This document shows positions 14,963 to 36,524 of a stretch of DNA of 64,000 nt, in pieces. Every line of letters begins with the position of its first letter. Position 1 is the first letter of the stretch. The notes under the pieces were generated by a model that searched no databases, was not told the origin of the DNA, and worked only from the letters and a program-made list of their open reading frames with translations. The stretch is from contig CAVVFV010000008.1 in the NCBI GenBank assembly GCA_963747695.1, positions 11,592-75,591 on the forward strand, given 5' to 3'. The translations under genes and the position numbers were made by a program. This stretch comes from Candidatus Falkowbacteria bacterium (GTDB lineage Bacteria > Patescibacteriota > Patescibacteriia > Patescibacteriales > WJLG01).

Positions 14963-16093
14963 ATGAAGATCTTACTTGTAATAACGAAGGCCGTCGTGGG
15001 CGGGGCGCAGACTTCCGTATTGAATTTGGCGCGGGAAATGAAGCGGCGCGGTCATGAGGTCACGGTCGGGTTTGGCGATGGCGATTGGCTGCCGCTTGAA
15101 TTGGATAAAGCGAAAATCGCGTATTATCGTTTCCGTAATTTAAAGAGAACGCATAATCCCTTGGCCAATCTTTTTTTTATCGGCGAGATCGCCGGCTATT
15201 TGCGGCGCAAGGATTTTAGCGCGGTGCATTTCAATAGTTCCAATGCCTTGCCCGGCGCGATTGGCGCGAAATTGGCCGGTCGAAAAATTAGGACAATTTT
15301 CACTTTCCGGGGTATGTCGATGCTGGACGAGCATTACCGGACGAACCCGATCAAGAAGTTCGCTTATCGGTTATTTTTTAAATTCTGCCTGTTATTCGTG
15401 GACGCGCCGGTTTTCGTTTCCCGGGAAAATTGGGAAAAATTCGGCCAAGGCCAGCTAACCAAGCGAGGATTCTTGATTTACAATGGTTTGGATCCGGAAC
15501 AGGTGAATTTCGTTCCGCGGGCAGAGGCGATTAATTTTTTTTCGCAAAAGACCGGTCGTGATTTGGCGGGAAAATACCTCCTCGGCTCGATCGGCCGCCT
15601 GGATTATGCCAAGAATTACGAGTTCTTGATCAATATTTTCCCGAAAATTTTGAATATCCGGTCGGATGCCGCGCTAGCGATTATGGGCGAGGGAGCGGAG
15701 CGAGCGCAGTATGAAAATTTAATCCAGGCCAAAGGTTTGACGGAAAAAATATTTTTATTGGGCAACGTCGAGAATGGCGGCCGCTATCTTCGTGGGTTTG
15801 ATTTGTTCGTCCAGCCGTCGCGTTATGAAGGATTGTCAATCGCCTTGATCGAGGCCTTGTTTGCCGGCTCGCTTATTTTGACTAGCGACGTCGGCGGCAA
15901 TCGCGAGGTCGTCGGCGGCTCCAACGAAGAAATATACCGCCTGGACGATGAAGCGGAATTTCTCGCCAAATTCCAGGCTCTGCAGGATATCGATCTTTGG
16001 CCGAAGATAATCCACAATAACGCGGGTCAGGCGCTCAAATTCCGTCTCGCCGACACCGCCGACGGCTATGAGAAAATTTACCAAGAAAAATAA
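14963..16093 (+). CDS. Glycosyltransferase family 4 (GT-B)
   Basis: C-terminal EGLSIALIEALFAG (E-x7-E motif). Confidence 0.8.
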   Translation: MKILLVITKAVVGGAQTSVLNLAREMKRRGHEVTVGFGDGDWLPLELDKAKIAYYRFRNLKRTHNPLANLFFIGEIAGYLRRKDFSAVHFNSSNALPGAIGAKLAGRKIRTIFTFRGMSMLDEHYRTNPIKKFAYRLFFKFCLLFVDAPVFVSRENWEKFGQGQLTKRGFLIYNGLDPEQVNFVPRAEAINFFSQKTGRDLAGKYLLGSIGRLDYAKNYEFLINIFPKILNIRSDAALAIMGEGAERAQYENLIQAKGLTEKIFLLGNVENGGRYLRGFDLFVQPSRYEGLSIALIEALFAGSLILTSDVGGNREVVGGSNEEIYRLDDEAEFLAKFQALQDIDLWPKIIHNNAGQALKFRLADTADGYEKIYQEK

Positions 16094-16099
16094 TTTTAT

Positions 16100-16999
16100 A
16101 TGGCTAAACAATTCAGCGTCGTCATCCCGACCTATAATCGGCAAAAAGAGCTGGAGAATTGTCTGACTTCTATTTTGCGCCAGAATCTGCCGCCGGCGGA
16201 AATTATAATCGTCGATGACGCCGGATTAGGCGATGAATTTTTGGCCTATTGGAAACAGGAGTCAACCGTATTGAAGATCGATTTCGTTTATCGGCGCAAA
16301 GATCCGGTGAAAGAAATCCGCGGCAGTTCGGCATCGCGTAATATCGGTTTGGAGCTGGCAAAGGAAAAAATCTGTTTCATTCTGGATGATGATCTGGTCT
16401 TGGAAAATTATTTTTTCCAGGAAATAATGGCTGATTGGAGCGACGATCCCCGTTTGATCGGGGTCGGCGGAGTAATCAGCAATAACCGGATCCGAACCGA
16501 TTGGGAAAAAAAATATAATAAATTTTTTGGTTTTCGCACGGGGATTGCCTGGGATATCAATGGCAGCGGCTTTCAAATCTGGGATGACCATCTGGCCGAC
16601 CGGCAGGTTGCTTTTTACGTCCATGGCGGAGTCTGCGCTTATGATAAAGAGCTGGTCAAAAAACTTGGCGGGTTCACCATTTTCGGCGGCGGCCGCGAAT
16701 CTTTGGAAGACGTGGATTTTTGCTGGCGCGCGAAGCGGGCTGATTATCATTTTTTGATCGAGCCGAAAGCCCGCGTTTTCCATGCCCACAGTCCGGCGGG
16801 CCGCGAAGATGATTTTACCGCCGGTTATAAGGAAAGTTTCAATCGCCGGACAATCTTCAAAACCTTGGGCGGCAAGGAGAGAGACGATTTGATCCGTTTT
16901 TATTGGGCTAATGCCGGCTGGATCCTGCGTCAAATTCTAAGAGGAAAATTTAGAAAAGCCTGGGGGATGATCAGCGGTTTAAGAAAAAAATTTTTATGA
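16100..16999 (+). CDS. Glycosyltransferase family 2
   Basis: VVIPTYNR, IIIVDDAG and ILDDD motifs. Confidence 0.8.
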   Translation: MAKQFSVVIPTYNRQKELENCLTSILRQNLPPAEIIIVDDAGLGDEFLAYWKQESTVLKIDFVYRRKDPVKEIRGSSASRNIGLELAKEKICFILDDDLVLENYFFQEIMADWSDDPRLIGVGGVISNNRIRTDWEKKYNKFFGFRTGIAWDINGSGFQIWDDHLADRQVAFYVHGGVCAYDKELVKKLGGFTIFGGGRESLEDVDFCWRAKRADYHFLIEPKARVFHAHSPAGREDDFTAGYKESFNRRTIFKTLGGKERDDLIRFYWANAGWILRQILRGKFRKAWGMISGLRKKFL

Positions 17000-17775
17000 A
17001 ATTTTCCATCATCACCTGCACGAAAAATAGCGCCAAATATCTGGCGGACAATATCGCTTCGGTCAAAGCGCAGAGTTTTATCGACTATGAGCATATTTTT
17101 ATTGACGCCTTTTCAGCCGACGGCACGGTCGAGCTGATTAAAAAATATCAGCTGGAATTTCCTTCTCAGGTGAAGTTTTTTCAGTTGCCGCCGGCGGGAA
17201 TTTCCGCGGCGATGAATGCCGGCACCGAGCGGGCGGCGGGCGAGTTTTTGATCCACCTTCATTCCGATGACAGTTTTTATGATGAAAAAGTTTTGGCGGA
17301 CGTCGCTGCGTTTCTGGCAAAAAATCCGGCCTTGGATTGGATCTACGGCCGCGCCAATACAGTCAGGGACGACGGGTCGCCGGTATTGGTCTATCCGGAT
17401 AAACCGTTATTGCATTGGCATAATTCGCATAGTTTTATCGGCCGGTATTTGCTCAAGATCATGCGCTTTGTCCCGCACCAGGCGGTTTTCATCAGAAAAT
17501 CGGTATTGGAAAAATTCGGCGGCTTTGATGAAAGTCTGACCTCGGAGATGGACCCGGACCTTTGGTTTAGGCTGAGAAATAAAACCAATTGGAGTTTTTT
17601 TAACCGCATTATTTGCAATTACCGGATGGGCGAGGGGGCGCAATCATCCAGTGTTGACAAACGGCGGGAAAACTTGGAAAATATCAGAATAGTCCAGCAA
17701 AGGCATCTTAATCCGGTCGAATTTTTTTTAGTCGGTTTTCTCAATAAAATCAGGGCCAAGCGGGCAAAAAGATAG
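16996..17775 (+). CDS. Glycosyltransferase family 2
   Basis: FSIITCTKN, FIDAFSADGT and HSDD motifs. Its start overlaps the upstream stop (ATGA). Confidence 0.75.
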   Translation: MKFSIITCTKNSAKYLADNIASVKAQSFIDYEHIFIDAFSADGTVELIKKYQLEFPSQVKFFQLPPAGISAAMNAGTERAAGEFLIHLHSDDSFYDEKVLADVAAFLAKNPALDWIYGRANTVRDDGSPVLVYPDKPLLHWHNSHSFIGRYLLKIMRFVPHQAVFIRKSVLEKFGGFDESLTSEMDPDLWFRLRNKTNWSFFNRIICNYRMGEGAQSSSVDKRRENLENIRIVQQRHLNPVEFFLVGFLNKIRAKRAKR

Positions 17776-17778
17776 TCT

Positions 17779-18606
17779 ATGAATAAACGAATAAAAAAAA
17801 TCATCAAGTCAGTGGTGCCGCCGGTGATTTTGGCATTGGTCAAAGACCAGAGCGGCAAATGCAAATATGAGGGGATTTATCACGACTGGCAAGAGGCAAG
17901 AGCGCTGACGACCGGCTATGATGACCGGCAGATCTTGGAAAAAGCCCTGGCGGCAGCCCGGAAAGTGGAAAATGGCGAAGCGGTTTTTGAACGGGATACG
18001 GTTTTATTCGATCAGATCGAATATTCCTGGCCGTTGCTCGCCGCCTTGATGCTGGCCGCCGCCCAAGCTCGTGGCAGATTGAATGTGCTCGATTTCGGCG
18101 GATCGTTCGGGACGACCTTTCGACAGAATAAAAAGTTTTTGGATCGGCTTGAATCGGTAAGTTGGAATATCGTCGAGCAGGCCGAACTGGTCGAGGAAGG
18201 AAGAAAAAAAAACAAAGAGCAGAGGATTAAATTTTGGTCGAATATCGCCGAGTGTTTTGCCGCGCAGCCGATTGATCTGGCGGTTTTATCCGCCTCGCTG
18301 CAATATTTGACCGATCCATACGCTTTACTCAAGGAAATTTTATCACGCCGAGTTGGAATAATCGTGGTTGACCGATTGATCACCAGCGAGCAAGATGATT
18401 TCATAACTATTCAAAAAGTCCCGCCGACGATTTATCCGGCCAGCTATCCGGTTTGGATATTTAATCCGGCCAAGTTAAAGAATTTTTTCCAGGCCGCAGG
18501 CTATGAATTGCTGGAAGAATTCGCCGACCCCGTCAGTGGCGTCATCAGTGCAGGCTGTCAGACGGCCGAGCATCGGGGCTACATTTTTACTTTAGCCAAG
18601 AAATAA
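17779..18606 (+). CDS. Putative SAM-dependent methyltransferase (TIGR04325-like)
   Basis: VLDFGGSFG glycine-rich motif and a GYDD..ILEK N-terminus. The family assignment is from memory only. Confidence 0.5.
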   Translation: MNKRIKKIIKSVVPPVILALVKDQSGKCKYEGIYHDWQEARALTTGYDDRQILEKALAAARKVENGEAVFERDTVLFDQIEYSWPLLAALMLAAAQARGRLNVLDFGGSFGTTFRQNKKFLDRLESVSWNIVEQAELVEEGRKKNKEQRIKFWSNIAECFAAQPIDLAVLSASLQYLTDPYALLKEILSRRVGIIVVDRLITSEQDDFITIQKVPPTIYPASYPVWIFNPAKLKNFFQAAGYELLEEFADPVSGVISAGCQTAEHRGYIFTLAKK

Positions 18607-18608
18607 CT

Positions 18609-19583
18609 ATGAATAATTTTTGTACGCTATTTGATTCATTTTATCTCCTTAAGGGGTTGGCTTTATATAATTCCTTGGCCAAACAGCCGGAACCTTTCCA
18701 TCTCTATATTTTCGCCTTTGACGACCGCTGTCATGATATTTTGACCAAGTTAAAATTGACGTATGCCACCGTCATTCCGTTAAGCGACCTGGAAGACGAG
18801 CGCCTGAAAGCGGTGAAATCCGGCCGCAGCAAAGGCGAGTACTGTTGGACGGCCACGACTTCCGCGATCTTGTATTGCCTGGATAAATTTAATTTGGAAA
18901 GATGCACTTATATTGACGCCGATCTTTTTTTCTTTAATTCGCCGCAAATCGCTCTGCGCGAAATCGGCGATAAATCGGTTTTGATGACAGAACATCATTA
19001 TTCCCCCGAGTATGATCAATCGGCTTTGAGCGGGAAATATTGCGTCCAGTTCATGACGTTAAAGAACGATGCGGCCGGATTGAAAATTTTGAATTGGTGG
19101 AAGGATCGGGTGATCGAATGGTGTTTCAGCCGCCGAGAAGGCGATAAGTTCGGCGATCAGAAATATTTGGATGATTGGACAACCAGGTTTGCCGGCCTGG
19201 TAGCTGAGTCTAAATATTGGGGCGCGGGCGTCGCCCCTTGGAACACGCAGCGGTTTGAATTTTTCAAGCAGGACGGTATCATCAAGGTGCGGGAAAACGG
19301 AATAGCGTATAATCTGGTTTTTTTTCACTTTCACGATTCACAATTATATTTTTTTCTGAATAAATTAAGAATATTCCCGGGCAGTTATATTTTTAATCCT
19401 AATCCGCTGGTTAAAGAAATTTACGCCGCCTATGAAAAAGCGATTAACGAATCGTGGCAGATGGTAAAGTCGGCCGATCCGGATTTTCGCGTCGGGACTT
19501 TTTCCTGGAATCATATTTTAGAGGTGAAAGTCAGAAAGATTATTTTTCGGTTAAAACGAAAAATAAAGAATTTAAGTAAATAA
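18609..19583 (+). CDS. Putative GT-A fold glycosyltransferase
   Basis: YIDADLFFF (DxD) in a nucleotide-diphospho-sugar transferase-like context. Confidence 0.5.
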   Translation: MNNFCTLFDSFYLLKGLALYNSLAKQPEPFHLYIFAFDDRCHDILTKLKLTYATVIPLSDLEDERLKAVKSGRSKGEYCWTATTSAILYCLDKFNLERCTYIDADLFFFNSPQIALREIGDKSVLMTEHHYSPEYDQSALSGKYCVQFMTLKNDAAGLKILNWWKDRVIEWCFSRREGDKFGDQKYLDDWTTRFAGLVAESKYWGAGVAPWNTQRFEFFKQDGIIKVRENGIAYNLVFFHFHDSQLYFFLNKLRIFPGSYIFNPNPLVKEIYAAYEKAINESWQMVKSADPDFRVGTFSWNHILEVKVRKIIFRLKRKIKNLSK

Positions 19584-19592
19584 TTTAAAAAT

Positions 19593-20024
19593 ATGAATAA
19601 GAAAAAAATCAGGGTTAAAAATTCCGGATTCGTAAAATTGCAGAATTTTAACGATTTTCCCGACGGATCGCTGGGAATCGCCGAAGCCAAGAGAAATATT
19701 CCGATCGACATCAAAAGAGTCTATTTCATCAATAAGCTGTTTAATCAAAAATCGAAGCGCGGCCACCATGCCCACAAAAAATTGGAACAGATAATTTTTT
19801 GCGTCAACGGCAGCTTCAAAATAAAATTGGACGATGGCGCCGAACAACAGACGATTTTGCTGAATGATCCGACGGTCGGTATAATTTTGGGTAATAAACT
19901 ATGGCACGAAATGTCCAGCTTCACGTCAGATTGCGTGATTCTGGTCTTAGCTAATGATTATTTTGATGAAAAGGACTATCTGCGCAGTTACGACGAATTC
20001 TTAAAATACATTAGGAGAAAATAA
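19593..20024 (+). CDS. WxcM/FdtA-like sugar 3,4-ketoisomerase (cupin)
   Basis: WHEMSSFTSDCVILVLANDYFDEKDY is typical of the WxcM-like domain. Size is 143 aa. Confidence 0.7.
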   Translation: MNKKKIRVKNSGFVKLQNFNDFPDGSLGIAEAKRNIPIDIKRVYFINKLFNQKSKRGHHAHKKLEQIIFCVNGSFKIKLDDGAEQQTILLNDPTVGIILGNKLWHEMSSFTSDCVILVLANDYFDEKDYLRSYDEFLKYIRRK

Positions 20025-20027
20025 TTT

Positions 20028-21113
20028 ATGGAAGTTCCATTTTTTGACTATCGGCGTGAATTAAAAAAAATTAAACCAACGATCCTGAAAGCGGTGGACA
20101 AGGTTTTGTTGTCTGGAAATTTAATCATTGGCGACGAGGTCAGTAAATTTGAAACAGCCTTCGCGGGTACAGCCGGGGTTAAATTCGGGATCGGGGTGAA
20201 TTCCGGAACTGATGCTTTGAAAATCTCCTTAAGAGCCGTGGGTATCGCGGAAGGAGACGAAGTTATTACGGCAGCTAATACGGCCAGTCCGACAGTCAGC
20301 GCCATCAAGGAATTAATGGCCAAACCGGTCTTGGCTGATGTCGGCGAGGATTTCCTCGTAGACGTCGAAGAGATTGAGAAGAAGATCACGCCGAGAACCA
20401 AAGCGATCGTGCCAGTCCATCTTTACGGCCAGGTTTGCGCCATGGAAGCGATAATGGCGATCGCCCGGAAACATGGATTGAAGGTGGTGGAGGATTGCGC
20501 TCAGGCCCATGGGGCGTCTCGCCAAGGCAAGCCGGCCGGTAGTTTTGGCGATGCGGCCTGTTTCAGCTTTTATCCGACAAAAAATTTGGGCGCTTACGGC
20601 GATGCCGGACTGATCGTTACCGATGATCCGCAAATTGCCCAAGCCTGCAAGAGCTTAAGGAAGTATGGCATGGAAGATCAATATCTCTCGCTGCGCGACG
20701 GCTATAACAGCCGGTTGGACGAGATTCAAGCCGGAATTTTGAACGTTAAAATCAAATATCTGGCGGAAAATAATAAAAAGCGCGCGGCGACCGCCCAAAG
20801 ATATCTGGCTGAAATAACCAATCAGAAAATAATTTTGCCCAAGGTCAACGAGCAAGCCGTCCCGGTGTGGCATCAATTCGTGGTCAGAGTCGGGAAACGG
20901 GCGGAGTTTTTGGGATATCTTCGTAAAAATAAAATTGGTTTTGGCATTCATTATCCTTATCCGATCCATTTGCAGCCGGCTTTTTCCCAATTGGCTGCGG
21001 GTGATTTGCTCCGCGCGGAAAAATTCGCGCTCGAGATCGTTTCCTTGCCGATTTTCCCCGATTTGGAAAAAAAGGAAATTGATTATATAATTGAAACAAT
21101 CAATCGCTTCTAA
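20028..21113 (+). CDS. DegT/DnrJ/EryC1-family sugar aminotransferase
   Basis: [16 protein letters not shown] (PLP lysine) and HLYG motifs. Confidence 0.85.
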
Positions 21114-21215: not shown

Positions 21216-22139
21216 CTAGGAAAAAATTTTCTTGAGACGCTTTGACCACTTCGATTGCCAGCAAGTTTGTGCTTTGAGGAAATCAATGATCGTCCGGCGG
21301 GCCGCCTGATTTTCTGTCACGGCAATTTTTTTAACTTCGATTTTGATATTTTCCACTGAACCGGTCTGGTCGAAATTATTTTCCTCGCCGCAGTGCGTGC
21401 CGCTGCCGCTGAAACCGATGTTTTTAATTAATGATTTTCCAGGATAGAGGGTGAATTTATTTTTTAAAAAAGCCGAGGCATACCAACGGATCGCCCAGGA
21501 ATCATTCTTTTTTTCGATCTGGTCGAGGAGCATCTGCGTGTAAGGGTAAGAACCGGAGAAGTCGAATTCGCCGGTCAGTTTTTTATCTTTCAACTCTTGC
21601 AATAATTTCCGGCCGTCGGCTTGAAACAGATTCCAGCCGCGCTTCCAAGTTGCCCAGCCCCAGCAATCGGCACCCCGAAGAAAAAAAGTTTCCGGCAAAG
21701 GTTTTTTGGTCGGATAGACGTAGCCGTGGATGCTCACGATTTGATCCTCGTTTTCATAGAGGTTCAAGCCGTCGTTCATGTACTGTAAAAAAAAGGGCGA
21801 GGTGACCATATCATCTTCCAAAACGATTATCCGGCCGGATTGATCGATTACTTCGCTGACACCGGCAATGATCGAATGAGCTAAGCCGTAATTCTTTTCG
21901 CGCGCCACGATCCTGATGCTTTGGAAACCAGTTACGGTTTTTAAAAATTCTCTGACCGCGTCAACGCCCGCTTTGCTTGAGGCAGAATCCTTGGCGCCAT
22001 CAGAAAAAATGATCAAATCGCTTTGAGCGGCTAGAGTATTCTTTTGCAATGCGGCCATTGTTTCCTTGGTTTCTCCGGGGCGATTATAAACAAAGAGGGC
22101 GATAGGAGCCGGCGGTTTAATTATTTCCATATTTTTCAA
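21216..22139 (-). CDS. Putative GT-A fold glycosyltransferase
   Basis: IALFVYNRP and IIVLEDDM motifs. Confidence 0.55.
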   Translation of the reverse strand: MKNMEIIKPPAPIALFVYNRPGETKETMAALQKNTLAAQSDLIIFSDGAKDSASSKAGVDAVREFLKTVTGFQSIRIVAREKNYGLAHSIIAGVSEVIDQSGRIIVLEDDMVTSPFFLQYMNDGLNLYENEDQIVSIHGYVYPTKKPLPETFFLRGADCWGWATWKRGWNLFQADGRKLLQELKDKKLTGEFDFSGSYPYTQMLLDQIEKKNDSWAIRWYASAFLKNKFTLYPGKSLIKNIGFSGSGTHCGEENNFDQTGSVENIKIEVKKIAVTENQAARRTIIDFLKAQTCWQSKWSKRLKKIFS

Positions 22140-24800: not shown

Positions 24801-24819
24801 ATTGGCGCGGATGATATTA

Positions 24820-29328: not shown

Positions 29329-29577
29329 TTACCAAGTCTTAATTTTTTCCTTAGTGGTTTTTTTAAGCTGTTGATACGACTCGACAGCCTGCCGTTCGAT
29401 CTCCGGAGAAATGAGTCTGAGGATTTCTTTGCCCATAATCCGGTATTGCCGGCCGATTTTATTAGCTCGAATCAGGCCCTTTTTCAAAAGCCTTTTCATG
29501 GTGCTGCCGCTGATTTTTAGGAGTTGCTGGGTCTCAGCAGTGGTATAAACCTCATTTTCATTTATCTCGTTGTTCAT
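29329..29577 (-). CDS. Excisionase-family helix-turn-helix DNA-binding protein
   Basis: YTTAETQQLLKISGSTMKRLLKKGLIRANKIGRQYRI. I prefer the ATG at 29577. Its stop lies 1 nt from the wzm start. Confidence 0.65.
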   Translation of the reverse strand: MNNEINENEVYTTAETQQLLKISGSTMKRLLKKGLIRANKIGRQYRIMGKEILRLISPEIERQAVESYQQLKKTTKEKIKTW

Positions 29578-29583: not shown

Positions 29584-29589
29584 ATTATA
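29584..29589 (-). promoter_or_regulatory. Candidate -10 box (TATAAT) giving a near-leaderless HTH transcript
   Basis: The minus strand reads AGATATAAT-AAAAAC-ATG. Confidence 0.35.
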
Positions 29590-29687
29590 TCTTAAGGGGT
29601 TATTAGGTGTCAATAAGTAGTAAGAAAGTTGAAAAAAGGCGATGTCCGGTGTATGATTATATTTGATAATCATGTGACTTAGCCGGC

Positions 29688-30659
29688 ATGTTCAAGATTA
29701 ACTTGCCCACTAAAGCTAATTTGATGAGTAGAGTTTTAGCAAAAATTAAAGCGAGTCTTAAATTTGCCCGTCACGAGGTCCGAATAGTTTTGGCGCGGAT
29801 AAAAGGCCGCTACGGGAAAAAAATTTTTTCCGGATCGAAAGGAAATGAGCTGATCGCCATAGCTTTGACCGGTCAGGCGCCTTTTATGGCCGCCAGAATC
29901 GGCAGCGGGGAACTCGAATGTATAAGTTTTTATTTTAAAAATAGAAAGACGGCCAAAGTTCCCTATCCCGAGGAAATAAAAAAGAAGATGCATGATAATG
30001 CCGGATTTTTTCCGGCTGATGATGAGAGTCTTGATAAGTTTAGTGAAATTTTTCTTGAAAGTTTAAAAAAAACCGACTTGTTGGCGGTTTGGTTTAATCA
30101 AAACGAGGATCTTATTTGCCGCGAGTTTTGTCCAGGCGCCCAATTTTCGGAACTGAAAAGTTTAGAGCCGTATTACTGGCCCAAGCCTTGGAGTGCGGCA
30201 TTGGCCGGGAAGAAAGTCCTGGTGGTCCATCCGTTTGTCCAAACCATCTCCAGTCAATATCAGAATAAGCGCAAATTGATTTTTGCCAACCCCGCGGTTT
30301 TACCAAAATTTACGCTAAAGACGGTGCGGACTGTCCTATCGCTGGGAGATGAAAAAACTCAATTTACAGATTGGTTCGCGGCCTTGGCGAGCATGGAAAA
30401 AGCGATTGCCGCCGAGGATTTTGACGTCGCGATCATCGGCGCCGGCGCTTATGGCTTGCCGCTCGCGGCTTATGTCAAAAGTTTGGGCAAGCAAGCCGTC
30501 CATATGGGCGGCGCAACCCAGATCCTTTTCGGAATCAAGGGCAAGAGATGGGATAAAGCGCCGTTTATTTCCCGTTTATATAATGAAAATTGGGTCAGGC
30601 CGACGGCTGAGGAAACGCCGCGGGGAGCGGAAAAAGTCGAAGGCGCTACTTATTGGTGA
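29688..30659 (+). CDS. Hypothetical protein, possible GT-D-like glycosyltransferase
   Basis: ARIGSGELECISFY loosely resembles the DUF1792 R-x-GDGE motif. This call is weak. Confidence 0.35.
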   Translation: MFKINLPTKANLMSRVLAKIKASLKFARHEVRIVLARIKGRYGKKIFSGSKGNELIAIALTGQAPFMAARIGSGELECISFYFKNRKTAKVPYPEEIKKKMHDNAGFFPADDESLDKFSEIFLESLKKTDLLAVWFNQNEDLICREFCPGAQFSELKSLEPYYWPKPWSAALAGKKVLVVHPFVQTISSQYQNKRKLIFANPAVLPKFTLKTVRTVLSLGDEKTQFTDWFAALASMEKAIAAEDFDVAIIGAGAYGLPLAAYVKSLGKQAVHMGGATQILFGIKGKRWDKAPFISRLYNENWVRPTAEETPRGAEKVEGATYW

Positions 30660-30675
30660 ACGATATCTTAGAGAG

Positions 30676-31449
30676 TTATTTAGTGAACCAAAAACAGCCG
30701 CAGCCGAAAATTAGATTTTTTACCAATGCCGGATCGGCATTTTTTATTAGGCCGACTTCTTTCCAGTTGTCAGCGACGAGAGAAAATTCTTTAAGTTTCA
30801 GATCTTGAAAATATTCCCTGATCTGTTCGTAACTATAAATACGATGGGCGTTGAATTGCAAGCGCGGCTGGCCGACCGGTACGACGAAAAGTAAATTACC
30901 ACCGGGTTTTAGCACGCGGATCAATTCTTTCATCGCCGCCAGATCGCCGTCCGGATTGAGCGGATCGCCGTAACGGCCCAAACCGACATGTTCTACCACA
31001 TGCATGCATGACAAGGATTCCATGCTATTGTCGGCGAACGGCAAGGCGAGCAAATCGGCCTGACCGCTGGTTAAATTGGAAAGCTTCAGGTCGGCAGGAC
31101 GGTAATCGTAAAATTTTACCGGCACAAAAGCGGATACCAGGGTGGAAAAATGAAGAACCGAAGATATATCGATGTGCAGTGCCGGTTTGGTTTGGGCGAT
31201 AATTCTGGCGGCCCAGGCCGGATGATAGGTGTAATGCGGCTCAAAATCGGAAGTGGCGGTTTTTTCATCCAACAACGGCCGGACATTGCTGGAGTAAAAA
31301 GCAAAACGCTTATTTTTGTCCAAAGCGCGAAAAGCCCGGATCTCGCCGATAAAGAGAAAATACTTCGGGAGATGAGAAATTTTTTTGATTATTTCTTTAA
31401 CTTCCTTTTTAATGATTACCTTCGATTCCTCGAGGAGTAAAGTGAGCAT
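30676..31449 (-). CDS. SAM-dependent methyltransferase (DUF268-like)
   Basis: VEHVGLGRYGDPLNPDGD...LKPGGNLLFVVP. Confidence 0.65.
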   Translation of the reverse strand: MLTLLLEESKVIIKKEVKEIIKKISHLPKYFLFIGEIRAFRALDKNKRFAFYSSNVRPLLDEKTATSDFEPHYTYHPAWAARIIAQTKPALHIDISSVLHFSTLVSAFVPVKFYDYRPADLKLSNLTSGQADLLALPFADNSMESLSCMHVVEHVGLGRYGDPLNPDGDLAAMKELIRVLKPGGNLLFVVPVGQPRLQFNAHRIYSYEQIREYFQDLKLKEFSLVADNWKEVGLIKNADPALVKNLIFGCGCFWFTK

Positions 31450-31536: not shown

Positions 31537-32334
31537 CTATTTTTCCAATTCGGCAGTAAGCTCGGCAAGCAGCTCATCGTAAATTTTTTGTCCGTAGTGG
31601 TAAGGGAATTTATCGACCGGATTATATTCCGCCGGACTTCCGCAGATGATATTTTTGACAAAAGTTTTCTGCGCCGCTAACTTAAGCATCACTTCCCTGA
31701 TCTTCCGCGACCGCTCAAGATATTTTTCCCGTTTTTCCAATTCATCCGGATAATGGATAAAGAAAATCATTATGCCGGGATATTTTTTACTCGCCCAATC
31801 AAAAAAGGCTGTGTAATATTTTTCCAGGTCCAGTAGTGGCAGCATGCCCGAAGCAGAGAAGGTATGGTTGAAATTTTCGTCGTGGACGAGATCGTTCCAG
31901 AAGCAAGTGAACGACCAGCCTTCGTTTTTGTGAGTGAATTTCTTATCAGTCAGTTCGGCGAAGGAATCCATCACCAAATATTTCACCGGACGTTTATTGG
32001 CGAGCCAAGGCAATTTTTCCTGTTGCTTGATGATTTCGTTAAGATCGCTTCGGCGGAGCCGGAAATATTTGATGATCTCCGCGGTTTTCGGCCGCGGCGC
32101 GCCGTTGACGCAATCCAGAAAAGTATCAACGCGGGTTTTCTGCTGGTTGATCACCAGGAAATTATGATGTTTATTCAGCCATGACCGCAGCAACTTATTG
32201 CCCAGGCAGGCATTTCGGCCGAGAATAACCGTTTTTTTATCAAAAGGATTATGATAAACGAACGCATTCCGAAGGTTCGCCAGCTTGATGGCCAGCCCAA
32301 GAGAAAAATATTTCTTTAGTTTATTTTTCATCAT
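31537..32334 (-). CDS. Hypothetical protein
   Basis: A long ORF in a coding-dense locus with no recognised motif. Confidence 0.45.
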   Translation of the reverse strand: MMKNKLKKYFSLGLAIKLANLRNAFVYHNPFDKKTVILGRNACLGNKLLRSWLNKHHNFLVINQQKTRVDTFLDCVNGAPRPKTAEIIKYFRLRRSDLNEIIKQQEKLPWLANKRPVKYLVMDSFAELTDKKFTHKNEGWSFTCFWNDLVHDENFNHTFSASGMLPLLDLEKYYTAFFDWASKKYPGIMIFFIHYPDELEKREKYLERSRKIREVMLKLAAQKTFVKNIICGSPAEYNPVDKFPYHYGQKIYDELLAELTAELEK

Positions 32335-32482
32335 CGTTTTATTATCAAGCGAAGCGAGCGAAATGATCTCGCGCCTCGCCGGGATCGTTTCCGAGCGAGC
32401 GCAGAGAAAATACTCCGTCCGCTTGCGGCGGAGACACCTGCCAGAAAGATGGGGCGAGTGCTCGCCCTGCGGTTGATACCAT

Positions 32483-32941
32483 TCATTCTGTTAGAGCCGC
32501 TTGTTCACTGACTGTTTCCGGCGCTGGTTCCTGCCGGCGCGGGGTGTATACATAATATTTATATAAGAAGAAATTCCAGGAAACCGCCAGGATGATCGAG
32601 CTAAGGCGAACCAGGCGATAATCGTATTTTAACAGATGATTGAAGAGGTACATCGCGCCGACAGCGAAACAGTAATTATAAGCGACGACGATGCCGAAGC
32701 GGATGAGCTGATGATGGGTCAGGGGGTTACCTTTGAATGACCAATATTTATTCAAAAGAAAGACGTAAACCAAAATAAAAATCTGATTGGCGACGACCGC
32801 GACAAAAGCCGGCCAATGCCAGACTTCTTTGAGGAAGATCAGACTGCCCATATCCAAAACGACGGCGCTCGTGCCGACGATGAAGTATTTGACGAATTGC
32901 CGGCGCATCGACCAGAAGAAATTGAAAGTTTTTTTGAGCAT
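32483..32941 (-). CDS. GtrA-family membrane protein
   Basis: 152 aa with four TM helices. The FVKYFIVGTSAVVLD start is typical of GtrA-like proteins. Confidence 0.7.
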   Translation of the reverse strand: MLKKTFNFFWSMRRQFVKYFIVGTSAVVLDMGSLIFLKEVWHWPAFVAVVANQIFILVYVFLLNKYWSFKGNPLTHHQLIRFGIVVAYNYCFAVGAMYLFNHLLKYDYRLVRLSSIILAVSWNFFLYKYYVYTPRRQEPAPETVSEQAALTE

Positions 32942-32988
32942 TTCAGGAATTAATTTAATTAATATAGTCGGGAATAGACCCTCCCCGT

Positions 32989-33025
32989 CAGGCCGAGGCG
33001 GCCTGCCACCCCTCCCGAGGAGGGG
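32989..33025. repeat. Stand-alone GC-rich twin hairpin
   Basis: CAGGCCG-AGG-CGGCCTG followed by CCCCTCC-CGA-GGAGGGG. The same design forms the cores inside the elements at 36531, 48799, 53133 and 54294. Confidence 0.8.
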
Positions 33026-33032
33026 ACGAAAA

Positions 33033-33962
33033 TTATTCCAGGTTATCTAAATACCATCGGTAATAAGATTTTAATCCGTCGGCTAAATTTATTTTATGTT
33101 GCCAGCCGAGCTGATGCAAGCGGGAAACATCCAGCAGTTTGCGGGGCGTTCCATCGGGCTTGGTTTTGTCCCAAGAGATATCACCCGAGAAGCCGGTGAT
33201 CTTTTTGATCAGTTCGACGATTTCTTTGATGGAAAGATCTTCGCCCGTGCCGATATTGACGATTTCGCTGTTGTCATAATTATTCATTAAAAAAACGCAG
33301 GCGTCGGCCAGATCATCGACGTGGAGAAATTCCCGTTTGGCCTTTCCCGTTCCCCACACCACGACTTTTTTATCTCCGCGGATCTTAGCTTCATGAAATT
33401 TGCGCAATAATGCCGGCAGGACGTGAGAGTTCTGCAAATCGAAGTTATCGTTAGGGCCGTAAAGATTAGTGGGCATCACGGAAATGAAATTGGTGCCGTA
33501 TTGTCGGTTATAGGATTGGCAAGTGATGATGCCGGCGATTTTGGCGATCGCATAAGGCTTGTTGGTTTCTTCCAATGGTCCGGATAAAAGATATTCTTCT
33601 TTGATCGGCTGTTTGGCGTCGCGCGGATAAATACAGGAACTGCCGAGAAATAATAATTTTTTCACGCTGTTTAGTTGAGACTCGCGGATGACATTGTTCT
33701 GGACGGTTAAATTTTCATAAATGAAATCGGCCGGATAAGTCTGATTGGCGACGATGCCGCCGACTTTGGCGGCGGCGAGAAAGACGTATTCCGGCTTTTC
33801 GGTTTGGAAAAATTCCGCTACGGCATGCTGGTCGAGCAAATCAAGTTCTTGCCTGGTTTTCAAAACCAAATTGCCAAATCCTTCCGTTTGTATTTTTCGG
33901 ACAATAGCTGAACCGACCAAGCCGTTGTGACCAGCGACATAAATAGATGAGTTTTTATTCAT
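33033..33962 (-). CDS. fcl: GDP-L-fucose synthase
   Basis: [21 protein letters not shown] (YxxxK) and NLYGPNDNF motifs. Confidence 0.9.
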
Positions 33963-34065: not shown

Positions 34066-35103
34066 TTAACCGCCGGCACTTTCTTGCTTTAAATCCTTGA
34101 CACACATCTCCTTGATCAACTCGGTGAAAGATACTTGCGGTGCCCAGCCTAATTTGGTTTTGGCTTTGGTCGGGTCGCCGAGGAGGATGTCGACTTCGGT
34201 CGGGCGGAAATATTTAGGATCAATTTCGATAATTATTTTACCGGTTTTTTTATCCAGGCCTTTTTCGTTGACGCCTTGGCCTTGCCAGACAAGCTGGATG
34301 TCGAAGTGAGCGGCGGCTTTCTCGGCGAATTCGCGGACCGTGTGGGTTTCGCCGGTCGCCAAAAGATAATCATCCGGCGCTTCGGCTTGGAGCATTAGCC
34401 ACATACCGCGGACATAATCTTGGGCATGGCCCCAGTCGCGCTGGGCGTCGAGATTGCCCAAAAATAATTTTTGTTCTTTGCCTAATTTGATCCGGGCGAG
34501 TCCCCGAGTGATTTTGCGGGTGACGAAAGTTTCGCCGCGGCGGGGAGATTCATGATTGAATAAGATCCCGTTGACGGCAAACATATTGTAAGCCTCACGG
34601 TAATTTCTGGTGATCCAGTAAGCGAAAACTTTGGCTACTCCGTAAGGCGAGCGGGGATAGAAAGGCGAGGTTTCTTTGAGGGGAATTTCCGCGGCCTTGC
34701 CGAACATCTCGCTGGAAGAAGCTTGATAAAATTTGGTCTTAATCCTGGACTCGCGGATGGCATCAAGCAAGCGCAAGGCGCCGAGGCCGGTGACATCGGC
34801 GGTGTATTCCGGCATATCGAAAGAAACGCGGACATGGCTTTGCGCGCCCAGGTTATAAATTTCATCCGGCTGGATTTTCTCCAGCAGGCGGCTCAAGTTG
34901 CTCGAATCGGAAAGATCGCCGAAATGCAAGAATAATTTGACGCCATTGATGTGCGGATCAGTATAAAGATGGTCGATGCGGCCGGTATTGAAAGTGCTGG
35001 CGCGGCGGATCAAACCGTGGACTTCATACCCCTTTTCCAATAATAACTCCGCCAAATAGGAGCCGTCTTGTCCGGTAATGCCGGTGATCAGTGCCTTTTT
35101 CAT
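34066..35103 (-). CDS. gmd: GDP-mannose 4,6-dehydratase
   Basis: [23 protein letters not shown] and [10 protein letters not shown] motifs. Confidence 0.92.
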
Positions 35104-35107
35104 AATT

Positions 35108-35157
35108 TGATGCGAATGCCGCGAATTAGTCGCGAATGCCGCGAAAATCGCGAATAA
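35108..35157. repeat. Solo arm (half element) of the CGAATGC/ATTCGC family
   Basis: TGATGCGAATGCCGCGAATTAGTCGCGAATGCCGCGAAAATCGCGAATAA lies 4 nt upstream of the gmd start in gene orientation. Confidence 0.65.
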
Positions 35158-35165
35158 TATTTATT

Positions 35166-36524
35166 TTATCTGCCGGCTCGAGATAAAACCGTGGAAATCG
35201 TTTTTAAGATGATTGATAAGTCCAGATAGATCGAGCGGTTTTTTACATAATACAGATCGTACTGTAATTTTTTCATCGTATCGGCAAAAGAAGGCGAATG
35301 GTATTCCCCGGAAATTTGGTCGCAACCGGTGACGCCCGGTTTGACCAGCATCCGCTCGCGGTAAAAAGGGATTTGTTTTTCCAGCTCAGTGATCAATTCC
35401 GGCCGTTCGGGGCGCGGGCCGACAAAACTCATTTCGCCTCTGATAATATTGAGCACCTGGGGAATTTCGTCCAGGCGGGTTTTGCGCAAGAACGAACCGA
35501 AGCGGGTAATGCGGCTGTCATTGACCGCGGTCGGGGAGTGGTCGTTATTTTCGGTTTTCATCGTGCGGAATTTGATGATCCGGAAATTTTTTCCCCGTTC
35601 GCCGGTCCGCGTTTCCAGAAAAAATACCGGGCCGCGGCTTTCCAATTTGACGATCAAGCCGATGATCAGCCAGAAAATTAAGCTGACCAGGAAGATCAGG
35701 AGCGACAAGATAAGATCAGACGTCCGTTTGAACAGATCGAAGTCTCTCTTGTTGCCTTCGTTCAGATTTTCCAAAAACCACATCTTGTTGATTTCCTCCA
35801 GAGGGATTTTGCCGGCGATGTTTTCATAAAAATCAACCAAGTTGATAAAAGTGATTTTTAACGGCAGGCATTCGAAAAGCAAAGCGCGCAATTCCTGCGA
35901 ATCGGGCGCCGTGGCAAGTATGACATTATTGATTTTTCTTTTTTCGATCAAAGCCGGCAGGTCATTGAGATTGGAAAAGATCGGCGTGCCGTTCAATTCT
36001 TTGCTGTTTGTTTTTTCGTCCAGGATGAAAGACAAAGAAAAACCCAGCTGCGGCTTTTGTTTCAACTCGGCCGAGATTTCTTCAACCAAGTGATTTTGGC
36101 CGATGATCGCCAGATTGACGCGGGGCAGATATGATTTGAGCAGGGAATTCAGAGAGCGGCGCCAAATGATGAACAGGGCGGCGAAGACAACGATGAAAAT
36201 CGCCAAATTGGTTTTGGGAGTCAGTTTGTCGTGAGGGAAAAGATAAAAATAAACGATCGATAAAAGCGCCGCAATAATAAAACTTTGGCCGACTCGCTGA
36301 AAGAATTGAGCGTTGTTGACCGCTTGGCGCAGATCGTAAAGATTGGAAATGTAAAAAGCGATCAGCCAAAAAACAAAAACCACCAGGAATGATTCCCAGA
36401 GCTTTTGATAGGTTTCGGCGCCCGGCAAAGTCAGATAGCGGAGCCAGAGTGTCAGAAACAGGGCCAGCTGCATGACGATCAGATCGCCCAACAGGATAAG
36501 GAAATTTTTAAATCGATTGCTCAT
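35166..36524 (-). CDS. Polyprenyl-phosphate glycosyl-1-phosphate transferase (WbaP/exopolysaccharide initiating enzyme type)
   Basis: N-terminal TM block, then a bacterial sugar-transferase domain with KFRTM, DEIPQ and GEMSFVGPRP. Confidence 0.85.
   Translation of the reverse strand: MSNRFKNFLILLGDLIVMQLALFLTLWLRYLTLPGAETYQKLWESFLVVFVFWLIAFYISNLYDLRQAVNNAQFFQRVGQSFIIAALLSIVYFYLFPHDKLTPKTNLAIFIVVFAALFIIWRRSLNSLLKSYLPRVNLAIIGQNHLVEEISAELKQKPQLGFSLSFILDEKTNSKELNGTPIFSNLNDLPALIEKRKINNVILATAPDSQELRALLFECLPLKITFINLVDFYENIAGKIPLEEINKMWFLENLNEGNKRDFDLFKRTSDLILSLLIFLVSLIFWLIIGLIVKLESRGPVFFLETRTGERGKNFRIIKFRTMKTENNDHSPTAVNDSRITRFGSFLRKTRLDEIPQVLNIIRGEMSFVGPRPERPELITELEKQIPFYRERMLVKPGVTGCDQISGEYHSPSFADTMKKLQYDLYYVKNRSIYLDLSIILKTISTVLSRAGR

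What the first reader, a model, noticed from the sequence alone, without database searches (positions are those of the whole stretch)
14963..36524. Glycan-assembly locus of about 21.5 kb using the ABC-transporter-dependent route, large for a putatively reduced genome
The locus contains at least 24 consecutive genes:
- one GT4, at least three clear GT2 and six or more further GT-like proteins
- three methyltransferases (17779, 24820, 30676)
- an FdtA-like isomerase plus a DegT aminotransferase
- gmd and fcl (GDP-fucose)
- a GT11-like putative fucosyltransferase
- GtrA
- a WbaP-type initiating phosphoglycosyl transferase
- Wzm/Wzt

rfbB (1839), a mannose-1-P guanylyltransferase (6529), galU (48940) and three more GT2 genes (45548-48770) lie outside the locus.

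There is no Wzx flippase, no Wzy polymerase and no O-antigen ligase in the window. That is consistent with complete cytoplasmic assembly followed by ABC export, as in S-layer glycans, teichoic-acid-like polymers or O-PS of the O8/O9a type.

For an organism that otherwise looks streamlined, more than one third of the window is devoted to a methylated fucose and amino-sugar polymer.
Basis: partly seen in the sequence, partly recalled or inferred. Interest (0 to 1): 0.6.

Follow-up and report, generated by a model that had tools for sequence, protein, structure and literature searches.

The report
ABC-exported surface glycan locus, Patescibacteria
This is a real 21.5-kb gene cluster in a small-genome (Patescibacteria) bacterium that most likely builds a fucose- and amino-sugar-containing surface polysaccharide inside the cell and exports it through a Wzm/Wzt pump. 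It is a known kind of system, here with a swappable, serotype-like cassette.

Summary
Positions 14963-36524 carry 24 tightly packed ORFs, and 22 of them are linked to glycan synthesis.

Strong family matches:
- one GT4 and three GT2 glycosyltransferases
- three methyltransferases
- an FdtA/QdtA isomerase with a QdtB-like 3-aminotransferase
- gmd and fcl
- GtrA
- a WbaP/WsaP-type initiating transferase
- Wzm, and a Wzt that carries a carbohydrate-binding domain

Of the eight weak or "dark" ORFs:
- 22136 has a GT-A fold resembling GT8/GT6 enzymes (pLDDT 95.6).
- 25604 belongs to a divergent GT2-like family.
- 18609 belongs to a large family that sources name "glycosyl transferase".
- Four have only sub-threshold GT hits.
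- 31537 is not a GT. It has an SGNH-hydrolase-like fold.

ORF 29329 is an HTH_17 DNA-binding protein.

The window has no Wzx, Wzy, ligase or GT-C. Its only other polytopic membrane ORFs are RseP and an unclassified 7-TM ORF.

Two related Patescibacteria contigs carry the locus at the same iscS (L091, L092) and holB (L008/L091 only) flanks. They share conserved arms but differ in the cassette. Wzm is 87% and the Wzt ATPase 83% identical to the relative, while the Wzt carbohydrate-binding domain is only 20% identical.

Verdict: a new member of a known kind, closest to the Geobacillus S-layer glycan pathway. The acceptor is unknown.

The parts
14963..16093 (+). GT4-family glycosyltransferase. First gene of conserved arm A.
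   Evidence: Glycos_transf_1 1.4e-25 and Glyco_transf_4 8e-18. 77% and 58% identical in L092 and L091.
16100..16999 (+). GT2 glycosyltransferase (arm A).
   Evidence: PF00535 3.9e-21. 76% and 66% identical in relatives.
16996..17775 (+). GT2 glycosyltransferase (arm A).
   Evidence: PF00535 3e-22. 86% and 75% identical in relatives.
17779..18606 (+). SAM methyltransferase of the TIGR04325 family (arm A).
   Evidence: TIGR04325 3.3e-67, 226 bits against a cut-off of 80.
18609..19583 (+). Probable glycosyltransferase of a large family with no Pfam model (arm A).
   Evidence: More than 7500 homologues, about 50% identical to Bacteroidota proteins that NCBI names 'glycosyl transferase'. Invariant D103-x-D105 and H240. 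No Pfam or PDB sequence hit.
19593..20024 (+). dTDP-4-keto-6-deoxyglucose 3,4-ketoisomerase (FdtA/QdtA type).
   Evidence: PF05523 6.5e-42. PDB matches: FdtA 2pa7 at 1e-38 and QdtA at 1.7e-36.
20028..21113 (+). PLP sugar aminotransferase, most like nucleotide-sugar 3-aminotransferases.
   Evidence: DegT 3.3e-110. The nearest named solved relatives are QdtB at 1.8e-89 (molecule name), then 5u1z and 2oga, which I recall as WlaRG and DesV. The top match, 7b0d (1.9e-97), is deposited as a glutamine--scyllo-inositol transaminase. 4-aminotransferases are far weaker.
21216..22139 (-). GT2-like glycosyltransferase (weak). Last gene of the variable cassette.
   Evidence: PF00535 1.4e-4, 22.3 bits against 23.3. 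EpsD 2.8e-6. 72% identical homologue in L092, absent from L091.
22136..23095 (-). GT-A-fold glycosyltransferase resembling retaining GT8/GT6 enzymes (variable cassette).
   Evidence: AF2 pLDDT 95.6. Foldseek matches to SetA, LgtC, LARGE1, glycogenin and GT6, E 4e-6 to 1e-4. Invariant D107-x-D109 and H261. The domain is fused to GT2, GT4, GT9, MT and TPR domains in giant proteins.
23146..24072 (-). GT11-like putative fucosyltransferase (weak).
   Evidence: PF01531 1.2e-3, below the cut-off. The sequence shows 'HIRQNDY' and 'NSTFGAFAAYY', which resemble GT11 motifs as I recall them.
24045..24851 (-). Possible GT-A-like protein (very weak).
   Evidence: PF00535 8e-3. hhalign places 'FQEDY' on the GT2 DxD position, probability 12%. 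60% identical homologue in L091.
24820..25572 (-). SAM methyltransferase in the variable cassette. Candidate chain-capping enzyme.
   Evidence: Methyltransf_11 2.2e-10 and DUF268 8.4e-10.
25604..26461 (-). Member of a divergent GT2-like family.
   Evidence: About 2000 homologues, all 'hypothetical'. 9 of 50 members hit PF00535, best 5.7e-6. hhalign against GT2 gives 44% probability with 'NAD' on the DxD position.
26458..27231 (-). GT2 glycosyltransferase.
   Evidence: PF00535 3.9e-12.
27236..28504 (-). Wzt: ABC ATPase (residues 1-260) plus a C-terminal carbohydrate-binding domain (residues 261-422; Pfam Wzt_C matches 275-398).
   Evidence: ABC_tran 1.3e-24 and Wzt_C 1.4e-15. The ATPase is 83% identical to the relative and the CBD only 20%.
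28509..29327 (-). Wzm: ABC-2 permease.
   Evidence: PF01061 4.6e-14. 5 predicted TM segments. 87% identical in the relative.
29329..29577 (-). HTH_17 (excisionase/MerR-like) DNA-binding protein, 82 aa after correcting the start. First gene of the transporter operon.
   Evidence: HTH_17 3.4e-9. The start at Met33 is supported by the conserved promoter and ATG and by the 82-aa gene called in L007.
29584..29613 (-). Perfect sigma-70 consensus promoter (TTGACA-18-TATAAT). The ATG begins 7 nt after the -10 element.
   Evidence: The only 12/12 match in 14000-33900. Conserved in L008 and L007 while the upstream sequence is unalignable.
29688..30659 (+). GT-D-fold-like protein (weak). Occupies the second variable spot.
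   Evidence: PF22882 9.4e-5 and NF040628 1.8e-4, both below cut-off. Absent from L007 and L008, where other genes occupy this position.
30676..31449 (-). DUF268/Methyltransf_11 methyltransferase (arm C).
   Evidence: DUF268 1.7e-15. 59% identical in L008 and L009, next to the 31537 family in both.
31537..32334 (-). Rare SGNH-hydrolase-fold protein ('X'). Not a GT; possibly an O-acyl transferase or esterase.
   Evidence: Only 9 homologues. AF2 pLDDT 86. Foldseek matches to GDSL esterases, PAF-AH and the OatA C-domain, TM 0.4-0.5.
32483..32941 (-). GtrA-family small membrane protein.
   Evidence: PF04138 5.6e-15. 3 hydropathy TM segments.
33033..33962 (-). GDP-L-fucose synthase (Fcl).
   Evidence: NF047922 1.9e-151, 503.8 bits against 500.
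34066..35103 (-). [quoted passage not shown]
   Evidence: TIGR01472 4e-174.
35166..36524 (-). WbaP/WsaP-type polyprenyl-phosphate hexose-1-phosphate transferase (initiator).
   Evidence: Bac_transf 1.6e-60 plus CoA_binding_3. TIGR03025 above its cut-off. 5 TM segments.
1839..2807 (+). [quoted passage not shown] Supplies the FdtA substrate; lies outside the locus.
   Evidence: TIGR01181 3.2e-140, above its cut-off.
6496..7569 (+). Mannose-1-phosphate guanylyltransferase-like gene. Supplies GDP-mannose; lies outside the locus.
   Evidence: NTP_transferase plus ManC_GMP_beta-helix. TIGR01479 3.1e-56, below its cut-off.

Best explanation
This is one ABC-transporter-dependent surface-glycan locus of a Patescibacteria bacterium. 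It is organised as conserved 'arms' around an exchangeable, serotype-like cassette.

Proposed mechanism:
1. Precursor supply. GDP-L-fucose comes from ManC, Gmd and Fcl. A dTDP-3-amino-3,6-dideoxyhexose comes from RmlB, an FdtA/QdtA isomerase and a QdtB-like aminotransferase.
2. Initiation. A WbaP/WsaP-type transferase places a hexose-1-phosphate on polyprenyl phosphate.
3. Elongation. Soluble GTs extend the chain at the cytoplasmic face. The conserved GTs (GT4, two GT2, 18609) probably build the adaptor or backbone. The cassette GTs (26458, 25604, 24045, 23146, 22136, 21216) probably build the strain-specific part.
4. Capping. A methyltransferase caps the non-reducing end.
5. Export. The Wzt carbohydrate-binding domain recognises the cap and Wzm/Wzt exports the finished chain.
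6. Fate outside the cell. An enzyme not encoded in this window attaches the chain to an unknown acceptor. GtrA hints at an additional decoration outside the membrane through a polyprenyl-phosphate sugar.

Shown: gene identities, folds, operon layout, synteny and the variability pattern. Inferred: substrates, the order of GT action, methyl capping, and the acceptor.
For: - Gene identities are supported by curated models.
- The Wzt_C domain is present. CBD-bearing Wzt proteins require a terminal cap such as a methyl group (PMC9445017).
- All GTs and MTs are soluble, and the window has no Wzx, Wzy, ligase or GT-C.
- The aminotransferase is nearest to QdtB and, as I recall the entries 5u1z and 2oga, to WlaRG and DesV. 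It sits next to an FdtA/QdtA homologue.
- 22136 has a GT-A fold.
- The operon HTH-wzm-wzt plus seven GT/MT genes follows a conserved consensus promoter.
- Two related contigs carry arm A directly after iscS (L091, L092). One of them also shows arm C, the transporter genes and the holB end (L008/L091).
- The cassette differs between relatives, with a breakpoint inside wzt. The ATPase is 83% identical and Wzm 87%, but the CBD only 20%.
- Among 83 loci with ATPase relatives, only 9 have a detectable CBD match, at 31% identity or less.
- The combination of a WbaP-type initiator, Wzm/Wzt and a terminal O-methyl cap is established for the Geobacillus stearothermophilus S-layer glycan (PMC2943079).
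Against: - No ligase, OTase or LCP, and no acceptor, was identified in the window.
- No clear RmlA was found. The gene at 48841 is GalU-like and scores below its cut-off.
- No N-acyltransferase for the amino sugar was found.
- Five of the putative GTs rest on weak evidence: sub-threshold hits for 21216, 23146, 24045 and 29688, and database names plus a motif for 18609.
- Methyltransferase substrates are unknown.
- In GCA_028707065.1 the X-MT pair lies on a different contig, next to a Wzx-like Polysacc_synt gene. The modules may therefore not all serve one polymer.
- There is no expression or chemical data.
Confidence: 0.7

Rival explanations
1. The 21.5 kb holds two or three co-located but independent glycosylation systems rather than one pathway. 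For example, arm C (PGT, gmd, fcl, GtrA, X, MT) could make a short lipid-linked fucose-containing unit for protein or cell-wall decoration. The transporter operon and arm A would then make a separate polymer.
For: - Arm C genes are separated by 62-148 bp gaps, unlike the tightly coupled transporter operon.
- The transporter operon has its own conserved promoter.
- In GCA_028707065.1, arm A lies at the iscS site (L092), while the X-MT pair sits on another contig with WavE, GT61 and a Polysacc_synt flippase (L009).
- GtrA family proteins are associated with polyprenyl-phosphate monosaccharide routes (PMC5836110).
Against: - There is only one initiating transferase and only one exporter in the locus.
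- In the one relative whose whole locus is covered (L008/L091), all modules stay together between iscS and holB. L007 shows arm C close to the HTH-wzm genes.
- No GtrB or GT-C partner lies beside GtrA.
Confidence: 0.2
2. The polymer is made by a Wzx/Wzy-dependent route encoded elsewhere in the genome. WbaP-type initiators are typical of that route. The Wzm/Wzt pair would then export something else, such as a teichoic-acid-like polymer.
For: - The initiator is WbaP-like, not WecA-like.
- The Wzt ATPase scores best against TagH-type models, though below their cut-offs.
- A related genome has a Polysacc_synt gene near X-family genes.
Against: - No Wzx or Wzy is present anywhere in 64 kb.
- No CDP-glycerol or CDP-ribitol genes, and no TagF-type genes, were found.
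- wzm and wzt are embedded among the GT genes and co-transcribed with seven of them.
- The Wzt CBD co-varies with those GT genes.
- A WbaP homologue working with Wzm/Wzt has precedent (PMC2943079).
Confidence: 0.07

Closest known systems
S-layer glycan (slg) pathway of Geobacillus stearothermophilus NRS 2004/3a (WsaP, WsaC-F, Wzm/Wzt, WsaB)
   Same: Both use a WbaP-homologue initiator with five TM helices together with Wzm/Wzt. Both have cytoplasmic GTs, tightly packed and overlapping genes, and methyltransferase activity proposed to cap the chain for recognition by Wzt. Both hosts have a monoderm-type envelope (PMC2943079).
   Different: - Here the methyltransferases are stand-alone proteins, not a domain of a GT such as WsaE.
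- No Wzy_C oligosaccharyltransferase (WsaB) and no adjacent S-layer gene is present.
- The sugars are predicted to be fucose and a 3-amino-3,6-dideoxyhexose, not rhamnose.
- The transporter operon is led by an HTH_17 gene.
CBD-dependent O-antigen ABC systems (E. coli O9a/O8 WbdD-Wzt; Aquifex aeolicus WzmWzt)
   Same: Both have a Wzt with a C-terminal carbohydrate-binding domain plus methyltransferases. In the known systems the CBD reads a methyl or methyl-phosphate cap (PMC9445017, PMC3482155). Here the CBD is the hypervariable part.
   Different: - No WecA-type initiator is present.
- No WbdD-like kinase/coiled-coil ruler is present.
- No WaaL ligase or LPS is expected in a Patescibacteria envelope.
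- Cap chemistry here is untested.
Fdt/Qdt pathways to dTDP-Fuc3NAc or dTDP-Qui3NAc (Aneurinibacillus, Thermoanaerobacterium S-layer glycans)
   Same: An isomerase and a 3-aminotransferase lie adjacent to each other. They are close to FdtA/QdtA and QdtB.
   Different: No FdtC/QdtC-type N-acetyltransferase is present in the locus. The amino group may stay free or be modified in another way. RmlA was not identified in the window.
Gtr-type three-component glycosylation (GtrA/GtrB/GtrC; Listeria GtcA)
   Same: A GtrA-family protein is present and conserved in relatives.
   Different: No adjacent GtrB-like GT2 with C-terminal TM helices and no GT-C enzyme is present. Flippase activity of this family has not been proven biochemically (PMC5836110).

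Membership tests
ABC-transporter-dependent polysaccharide pathway (Wzm/Wzt) | ABC-2 permease (Wzm) and ATPase (Wzt) encoded together | tested here: met
   PF01061 4.6e-14, and PF00005 1.3e-24. The genes are 4 bp apart.
ABC-transporter-dependent polysaccharide pathway (Wzm/Wzt) | Wzt C-terminal carbohydrate-binding domain (cap-dependent subtype) | tested here: met
   PF14524 1.4e-15, 58 bits against 30.4.
ABC-transporter-dependent polysaccharide pathway (Wzm/Wzt) | No Wzx flippase or Wzy polymerase in the locus | tested here: met
   Pfam scans of all large ORFs. Only five polytopic ORFs exist in six frames, and none resembles Wzx or Wzy. The rest of the genome was not seen.
ABC-transporter-dependent polysaccharide pathway (Wzm/Wzt) | Chain-terminating modification enzyme acting on the non-reducing end | not testable with these tools
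   Three methyltransferases are present. Their substrates cannot be determined from sequence.
ABC-transporter-dependent polysaccharide pathway (Wzm/Wzt) | Polyprenyl-phosphate initiating transferase | tested here: met
   TIGR03025, 362.6 bits against 295.6. It is WbaP-type rather than WecA-type.
Geobacillus-type S-layer glycosylation (slg) cluster | Wzy_C-domain O-oligosaccharyltransferase (WsaB/WsfB) | tested here: not met
   No PF04932 hit and no 10-12-TM ORF in the window.
Geobacillus-type S-layer glycosylation (slg) cluster | Target S-layer or surface protein | tested here: inconclusive
   A surface protein of more than 1860 aa (TM anchor, Ser/Ala/Pro-rich linker, DUF2341, fn3) starts at about 58409. 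No link to the glycan has been shown.
GDP-L-fucose de novo pathway | Gmd and Fcl | tested here: met
   TIGR01472 4e-174 and NF047922 1.9e-151, both above their cut-offs.
dTDP-3-amino-3,6-dideoxyhexose (Fdt/Qdt) pathway | RmlA, RmlB, 3,4-ketoisomerase, 3-aminotransferase and N-acetyltransferase | tested here: inconclusive
   RmlB, the isomerase and the aminotransferase are present. No LbH acetyltransferase and no clear RmlA were found.
GT11 alpha-1,2-fucosyltransferase (ORF 23146) | Significant match to PF01531 and the HxRRGD-type motif | tested here: inconclusive
   18.6 bits against a cut-off of 23.9. 'HIRQNDY' is present in the sequence. The motif comparison is from memory.
Gtr three-component glycosylation system | GtrA plus GtrB (a GT2 with C-terminal TM helices) plus a GT-C transferase | tested here: not met
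   Only GtrA is present in the locus. The GT2 genes at 45548 and 46553 have one predicted TM each but lie more than 12 kb away. No GT-C is present.
SGNH/GDSL hydrolase superfamily (ORF 31537) | SGNH fold with the Ser-(Gly)-Asn-His catalytic blocks | tested here: inconclusive
   Fold matches to GDSL esterases, PAF-AH and OatA-C have probability 1.0, but TM is only 0.4-0.5. The invariant residues are R40, C43, D123, S124 and H246, which is not the canonical GDS...DxxH pattern.

The most novel reading that the evidence does not exclude
This Patescibacteria lineage may keep a fixed-site (iscS-holB), serotype-like glycan island. Its exchangeable unit would be the Wzt cap-reading domain together with the downstream GT/MT genes, driven by a conserved consensus promoter and a small HTH_17 protein. 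The variable glycan would decorate giant surface proteins that mediate attachment to hosts or evasion of phages. A previously undescribed SGNH-fold family (31537), paired with a DUF268 methyltransferase, would add a new sugar modification.
Probability: 0.3. Interest if true: 0.55.

Novelty: new member of a known kind. Interest (0 to 1): 0.38.

Why it matters
Patescibacteria are mostly uncultured, and those grown so far live attached to other microbes. Their surface is therefore the likely interface for recognising hosts and for phage attack, yet its chemistry is essentially unknown.

This locus gives a concrete and testable prediction: a capped polymer containing fucose and a 3-amino-3,6-dideoxyhexose, exported by Wzm/Wzt. 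It also shows that the part that varies between related genomes is the Wzt cap-reading domain plus the adjacent GT/MT genes. That is the same modular logic as serotype variation in Gram-negative O antigens.

The work also assigns folds to two previously unannotated proteins. The general fact that these genomes are rich in glycosyltransferases is already in the literature, so the advance is incremental.

Tried and rejected
- Single-sequence phmmer of the four no-Pfam ORFs against PDB sequences found nothing useful.
- Profile searches of the 31537, 22136, 25604 and 18609 families against PDB sequences also found nothing. Only structure prediction plus Foldseek resolved 31537 and 22136.
- A shallow GT2 profile built from the window's own GT2 proteins gave only low-probability hhalign matches to the dark ORFs, at 0.3-44%. 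These are suggestive for DxD register only.
- Rfam and ARAGORN found no RNA genes in the window. The ORF-poor, higher-GC region at 58-64 kb, which I first suspected to be non-coding, is a giant ORF running off the window end.
- The genome-contig scan with IscS gave only one related genome, at 56% identity and without the locus downstream. Synteny came instead from exact-protein look-ups of homologues.
- The 80 metagenome loci found with Wzt contained no homologues of 18609, 22136, 24045, 25604 or 29688.
- A classical teichoic-acid reading was rejected because no TagD/TagF-type genes are present.
- A mobile-element reading of the HTH_17 'excisionase-family' gene was rejected. No integrase is present, and the gene is conserved as the first gene of the wzm-wzt operon in relatives.

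Full report
**1. Observation**

The interval 14963-36524 contains 24 ORFs with almost no intergenic space. Seven lie on the + strand (14963-21113). Sixteen lie on the - strand (36524 down to 21216). One + strand gene (29688-30659) is embedded among the - strand genes.

- GT4 at 14963
- GT2 at 16100, 16996 and 26458
- Methyltransferases at 17779 (TIGR04325, 226 bits against 80), 24820 and 30676 (Methyltransf_11/DUF268)
- FdtA at 19593 and DegT at 20028
- Wzt at 27236, with ABC_tran plus Wzt_C
- Wzm at 28509 and GtrA at 32483
- Fcl at 33033 and Gmd at 34066
- A polyprenyl glycosylphosphotransferase with Bac_transf and five TM helices at 35166

The genes named outside the locus are also real:
- RmlB at 1839
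- A ManC-like gene at 6496
- Three GT2 genes at 45548-48770
- A GalU-like gene at 48841

**2. The uncertain ORFs**

Eight ORFs had weak or no Pfam hits. All are predicted to be soluble.

- **22136.** It belongs to a family with at least 1800 representative clusters. Its domain is fused to GT2, GT4, GT9, methyltransferase and TPR modules in giant proteins. An AlphaFold model reached pLDDT 95.6. The model matches retaining GT-A enzymes: SetA, LgtC, LARGE1, glycogenin and GT6. The family has an invariant DxD and a C-terminal His. I accept it as a glycosyltransferase.
- **25604.** It belongs to a family of about 2000 'hypothetical' proteins. Nine of 50 members reach PF00535. It is a divergent GT2-like protein.
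- **18609.** It belongs to a very large family (more than 7500 hits) that NCBI names 'glycosyl transferase'. It is about 50% identical to Bacteroidota members and has an invariant DxD. I could not obtain independent fold evidence.
- **21216, 23146, 24045 and 29688.** These keep only sub-threshold GT2, GT11, GT2 and GT-D hits.
- **31537.** It is not a GT. It is a rare family with 9 homologues. The model has pLDDT 86. Its fold resembles SGNH/GDSL esterases and the OatA C-domain, but its conserved residues are non-canonical.
- **29329.** It is an HTH_17 DNA-binding protein.

'Six or more further GT-like proteins' therefore holds as a count of candidates (seven), with graded support.

**3. Pathway type**

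A six-frame hydropathy scan finds only five polytopic membrane ORFs in 64 kb: Wzm, GtrA, the initiating transferase, RseP and an unclassified 7-TM ORF at 56733. No Wzx, Wzy, O-antigen ligase/Wzy_C or GT-C is present.

The locus is bounded by housekeeping genes:
- Left: nifU, ddl, iscS and an IVP gene
- Right: holB, a BNR protein, frr and rseP

Nothing relevant is hidden at its edges. With a CBD-bearing Wzt, the ABC-transporter-dependent reading is well supported. In characterised systems the CBD binds a terminal cap, such as a methylated sugar, that both stops elongation and licenses export (PMC9445017, PMC3482155). Three methyltransferases are available here, but their substrates are not known.

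**4. Sugars**

Gmd and Fcl, with ManC upstream, give GDP-L-fucose.

The isomerase is equally close to FdtA and QdtA. The aminotransferase's best PDB match is 7b0d, deposited as a glutamine--scyllo-inositol transaminase (1.9e-97). QdtB follows at 1.8e-89, then 5u1z and 2oga, which I recall as WlaRG and DesV. All of these named enzymes are 3-aminotransferases. 4-aminotransferases score far lower. With RmlB, this predicts a dTDP-3-amino-3,6-dideoxyhexose.

Two gaps remain. No N-acetyltransferase and no clear RmlA were found.

**5. Operon structure**

The only perfect sigma-70 consensus in 14-34 kb lies on the - strand at 29613-29584, inside the 5' end of the mechanically called HTH ORF. The ATG of Met33 begins 7 nt after the -10 element. 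The promoter and this ATG are conserved in two related loci, while the upstream sequence is unalignable.

The real product is therefore 82 aa, the size called in L007. The mRNA is probably leaderless or nearly so. The transcription unit is HTH_17, wzm, wzt and seven GT/MT genes, ending at the convergent junction 21113/21216.

**6. Comparison with relatives**

Homologue look-ups recovered parts of the locus in related Patescibacteria assemblies.

- **Ga0633490_0000021 (L008 plus L091).** It shows the whole region between iscS and holB.
- **GCA_028707065.1 (L092).** It carries arm A at 72-88% identity directly after iscS.
- **L007.** It carries arm C and the HTH-wzm genes.

Conserved parts:
- Arm A: GT4, GT2, GT2, MT, 18609, FdtA and DegT
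- Arm C: PGT, gmd, fcl, GtrA, 31537 and MT
- HTH, wzm and the ATPase half of wzt

Variable parts:
- *The genes downstream of wzt.* In L091 they are replaced by a Methyltransf_21 gene, a GT61 gene and two unknown genes; one of these unknowns is a 60% homologue of 24045 and is the only window cassette gene kept. L092 keeps homologues of 21216, 22136 and 23146, with an extra methyltransferase inserted.
- *The slot between the arm-C methyltransferase and the HTH gene.* In this window it holds the GT-D-like gene. In relatives it holds Glyco_trans_1_2 genes and giant CHAP, LCAT or Laminin_G surface proteins.

The breakpoint lies inside wzt. Residues 1-260 are 83% identical to the relative and Wzm is 87% identical, but residues 261-422 (the CBD) are only 20% identical. 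Across 83 loci with ATPase relatives, only 9 have a detectable match to this CBD, at 31% identity or less.

The cap-reading domain therefore travels with the variable GT/MT genes. This is the behaviour expected of a serotype-specific module.

The variable cassette also has the lowest GC in the locus, 0.442 against 0.465 in the arms.

**7. Organism and scale**

The best genome-collection relative of IscS is a Candidatus Paceibacterota MAG at 56% identity. Closer relatives are labelled 'Patescibacteria group bacterium'.

The exact proteins occur on a 331,635-bp contig, so the locus is about 6.5% of that contig. The literature already notes that Patescibacteria genomes encode many cell-surface modification genes, including glycosyltransferases (PMC12911398).

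**8. Comparison with known systems**

The closest described system is the S-layer glycan pathway of Geobacillus stearothermophilus. It combines a WbaP homologue (WsaP), Wzm/Wzt, cytoplasmic GTs and a terminal 2-O-methyl cap thought to be read by Wzt (PMC2943079).

The present locus works like that system but fails one defining membership feature: it has no Wzy_C oligosaccharyltransferase. No target protein has been demonstrated either. A giant DUF2341/fn3 surface protein with a Ser/Ala/Pro-rich linker starts at about 58409 and is a candidate acceptor only.

GtrA suggests an extra polyprenyl-phosphate sugar decoration route, as proposed for Listeria GtcA (PMC5836110). The partner enzymes for that route are absent from the window.

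**9. Verdict**

The locus is a new member of a known kind. Four features lift it slightly above routine annotation:
- The fixed-site, cassette-like variability
- The swapped CBD
- The HTH-led operon with a consensus promoter
- Two newly fold-assigned protein families

Noticed in passing
window 58247-64000 (+ strand); probable start at 58409: A giant ORF of at least 1863 aa runs off the window end and is invisible to the ORF listing. It has an N-terminal TM anchor and a Ser/Ala/Pro/Asn-rich linker of about 350 aa. It also has a DUF2341 domain and repeated fn3 modules. Its GC is 0.50-0.53, against about 0.45 elsewhere. It is a candidate surface adhesin or glycan acceptor.
   Followed up: partly
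window 29584-29613 (- strand) and the ATG at 29577: A perfect TTGACA-18-TATAAT promoter has the HTH_17 start codon 7 nt after the -10 element. This implies a leaderless or near-leaderless mRNA. It is conserved in L008 and L007 while the upstream DNA is unalignable.
   Followed up: yes
window 27236-27724 (Wzt C-terminal domain) compared with L091 17283-18551: A sharp identity drop occurs inside wzt, from 83% in the ATPase to 20% in the CBD. It marks a recombination or replacement breakpoint at the domain junction.
   Followed up: yes
window 1469-1813 and 14570-14890: Two genes encode '23S rRNA-intervening-sequence protein' (PF05635) four-helix-bundle proteins. One sits directly at the left edge of the glycan locus and the other just upstream of rfbB. 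The one at the locus edge is absent from the same position in L091 and L092.
   Followed up: no
L007 2924-7777; L008 11923-16513: In related bins the slot between the arm-C methyltransferase and the HTH-wzm operon holds giant secreted proteins. These are a 1265-aa CHAP/fn3 protein, a 1075-aa LCAT/PGAP1 lipase-like protein and a Laminin_G_3 protein. Surface proteins are therefore embedded in the glycan locus.
   Followed up: no
L010 6029-11843: In a distant locus an AAA_21 ATPase plus a DUF4276 gene pair is inserted between wzm and wzt. I recall this pair as resembling a defence-type module. The 31537-family gene there is followed by a WavE gene, as also in L009.
   Followed up: no
window 56733-57650: A 305-aa protein with 7 predicted TM segments and no family assignment lies immediately upstream of the giant surface-protein gene.
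   Followed up: partly
window 60525-60633: A weak RNase P class A partial match (17 bits against a gathering score of 100, E 0.03) lies inside the giant ORF. It is almost certainly chance.
   Followed up: no
window 37907-38998 and 8895-11252: A BNR/sortilin-like beta-propeller protein and a 785-aa DUF3160 protein flank the locus region. Both are conserved at the same positions in relatives (L008, L091, L092).
   Followed up: no
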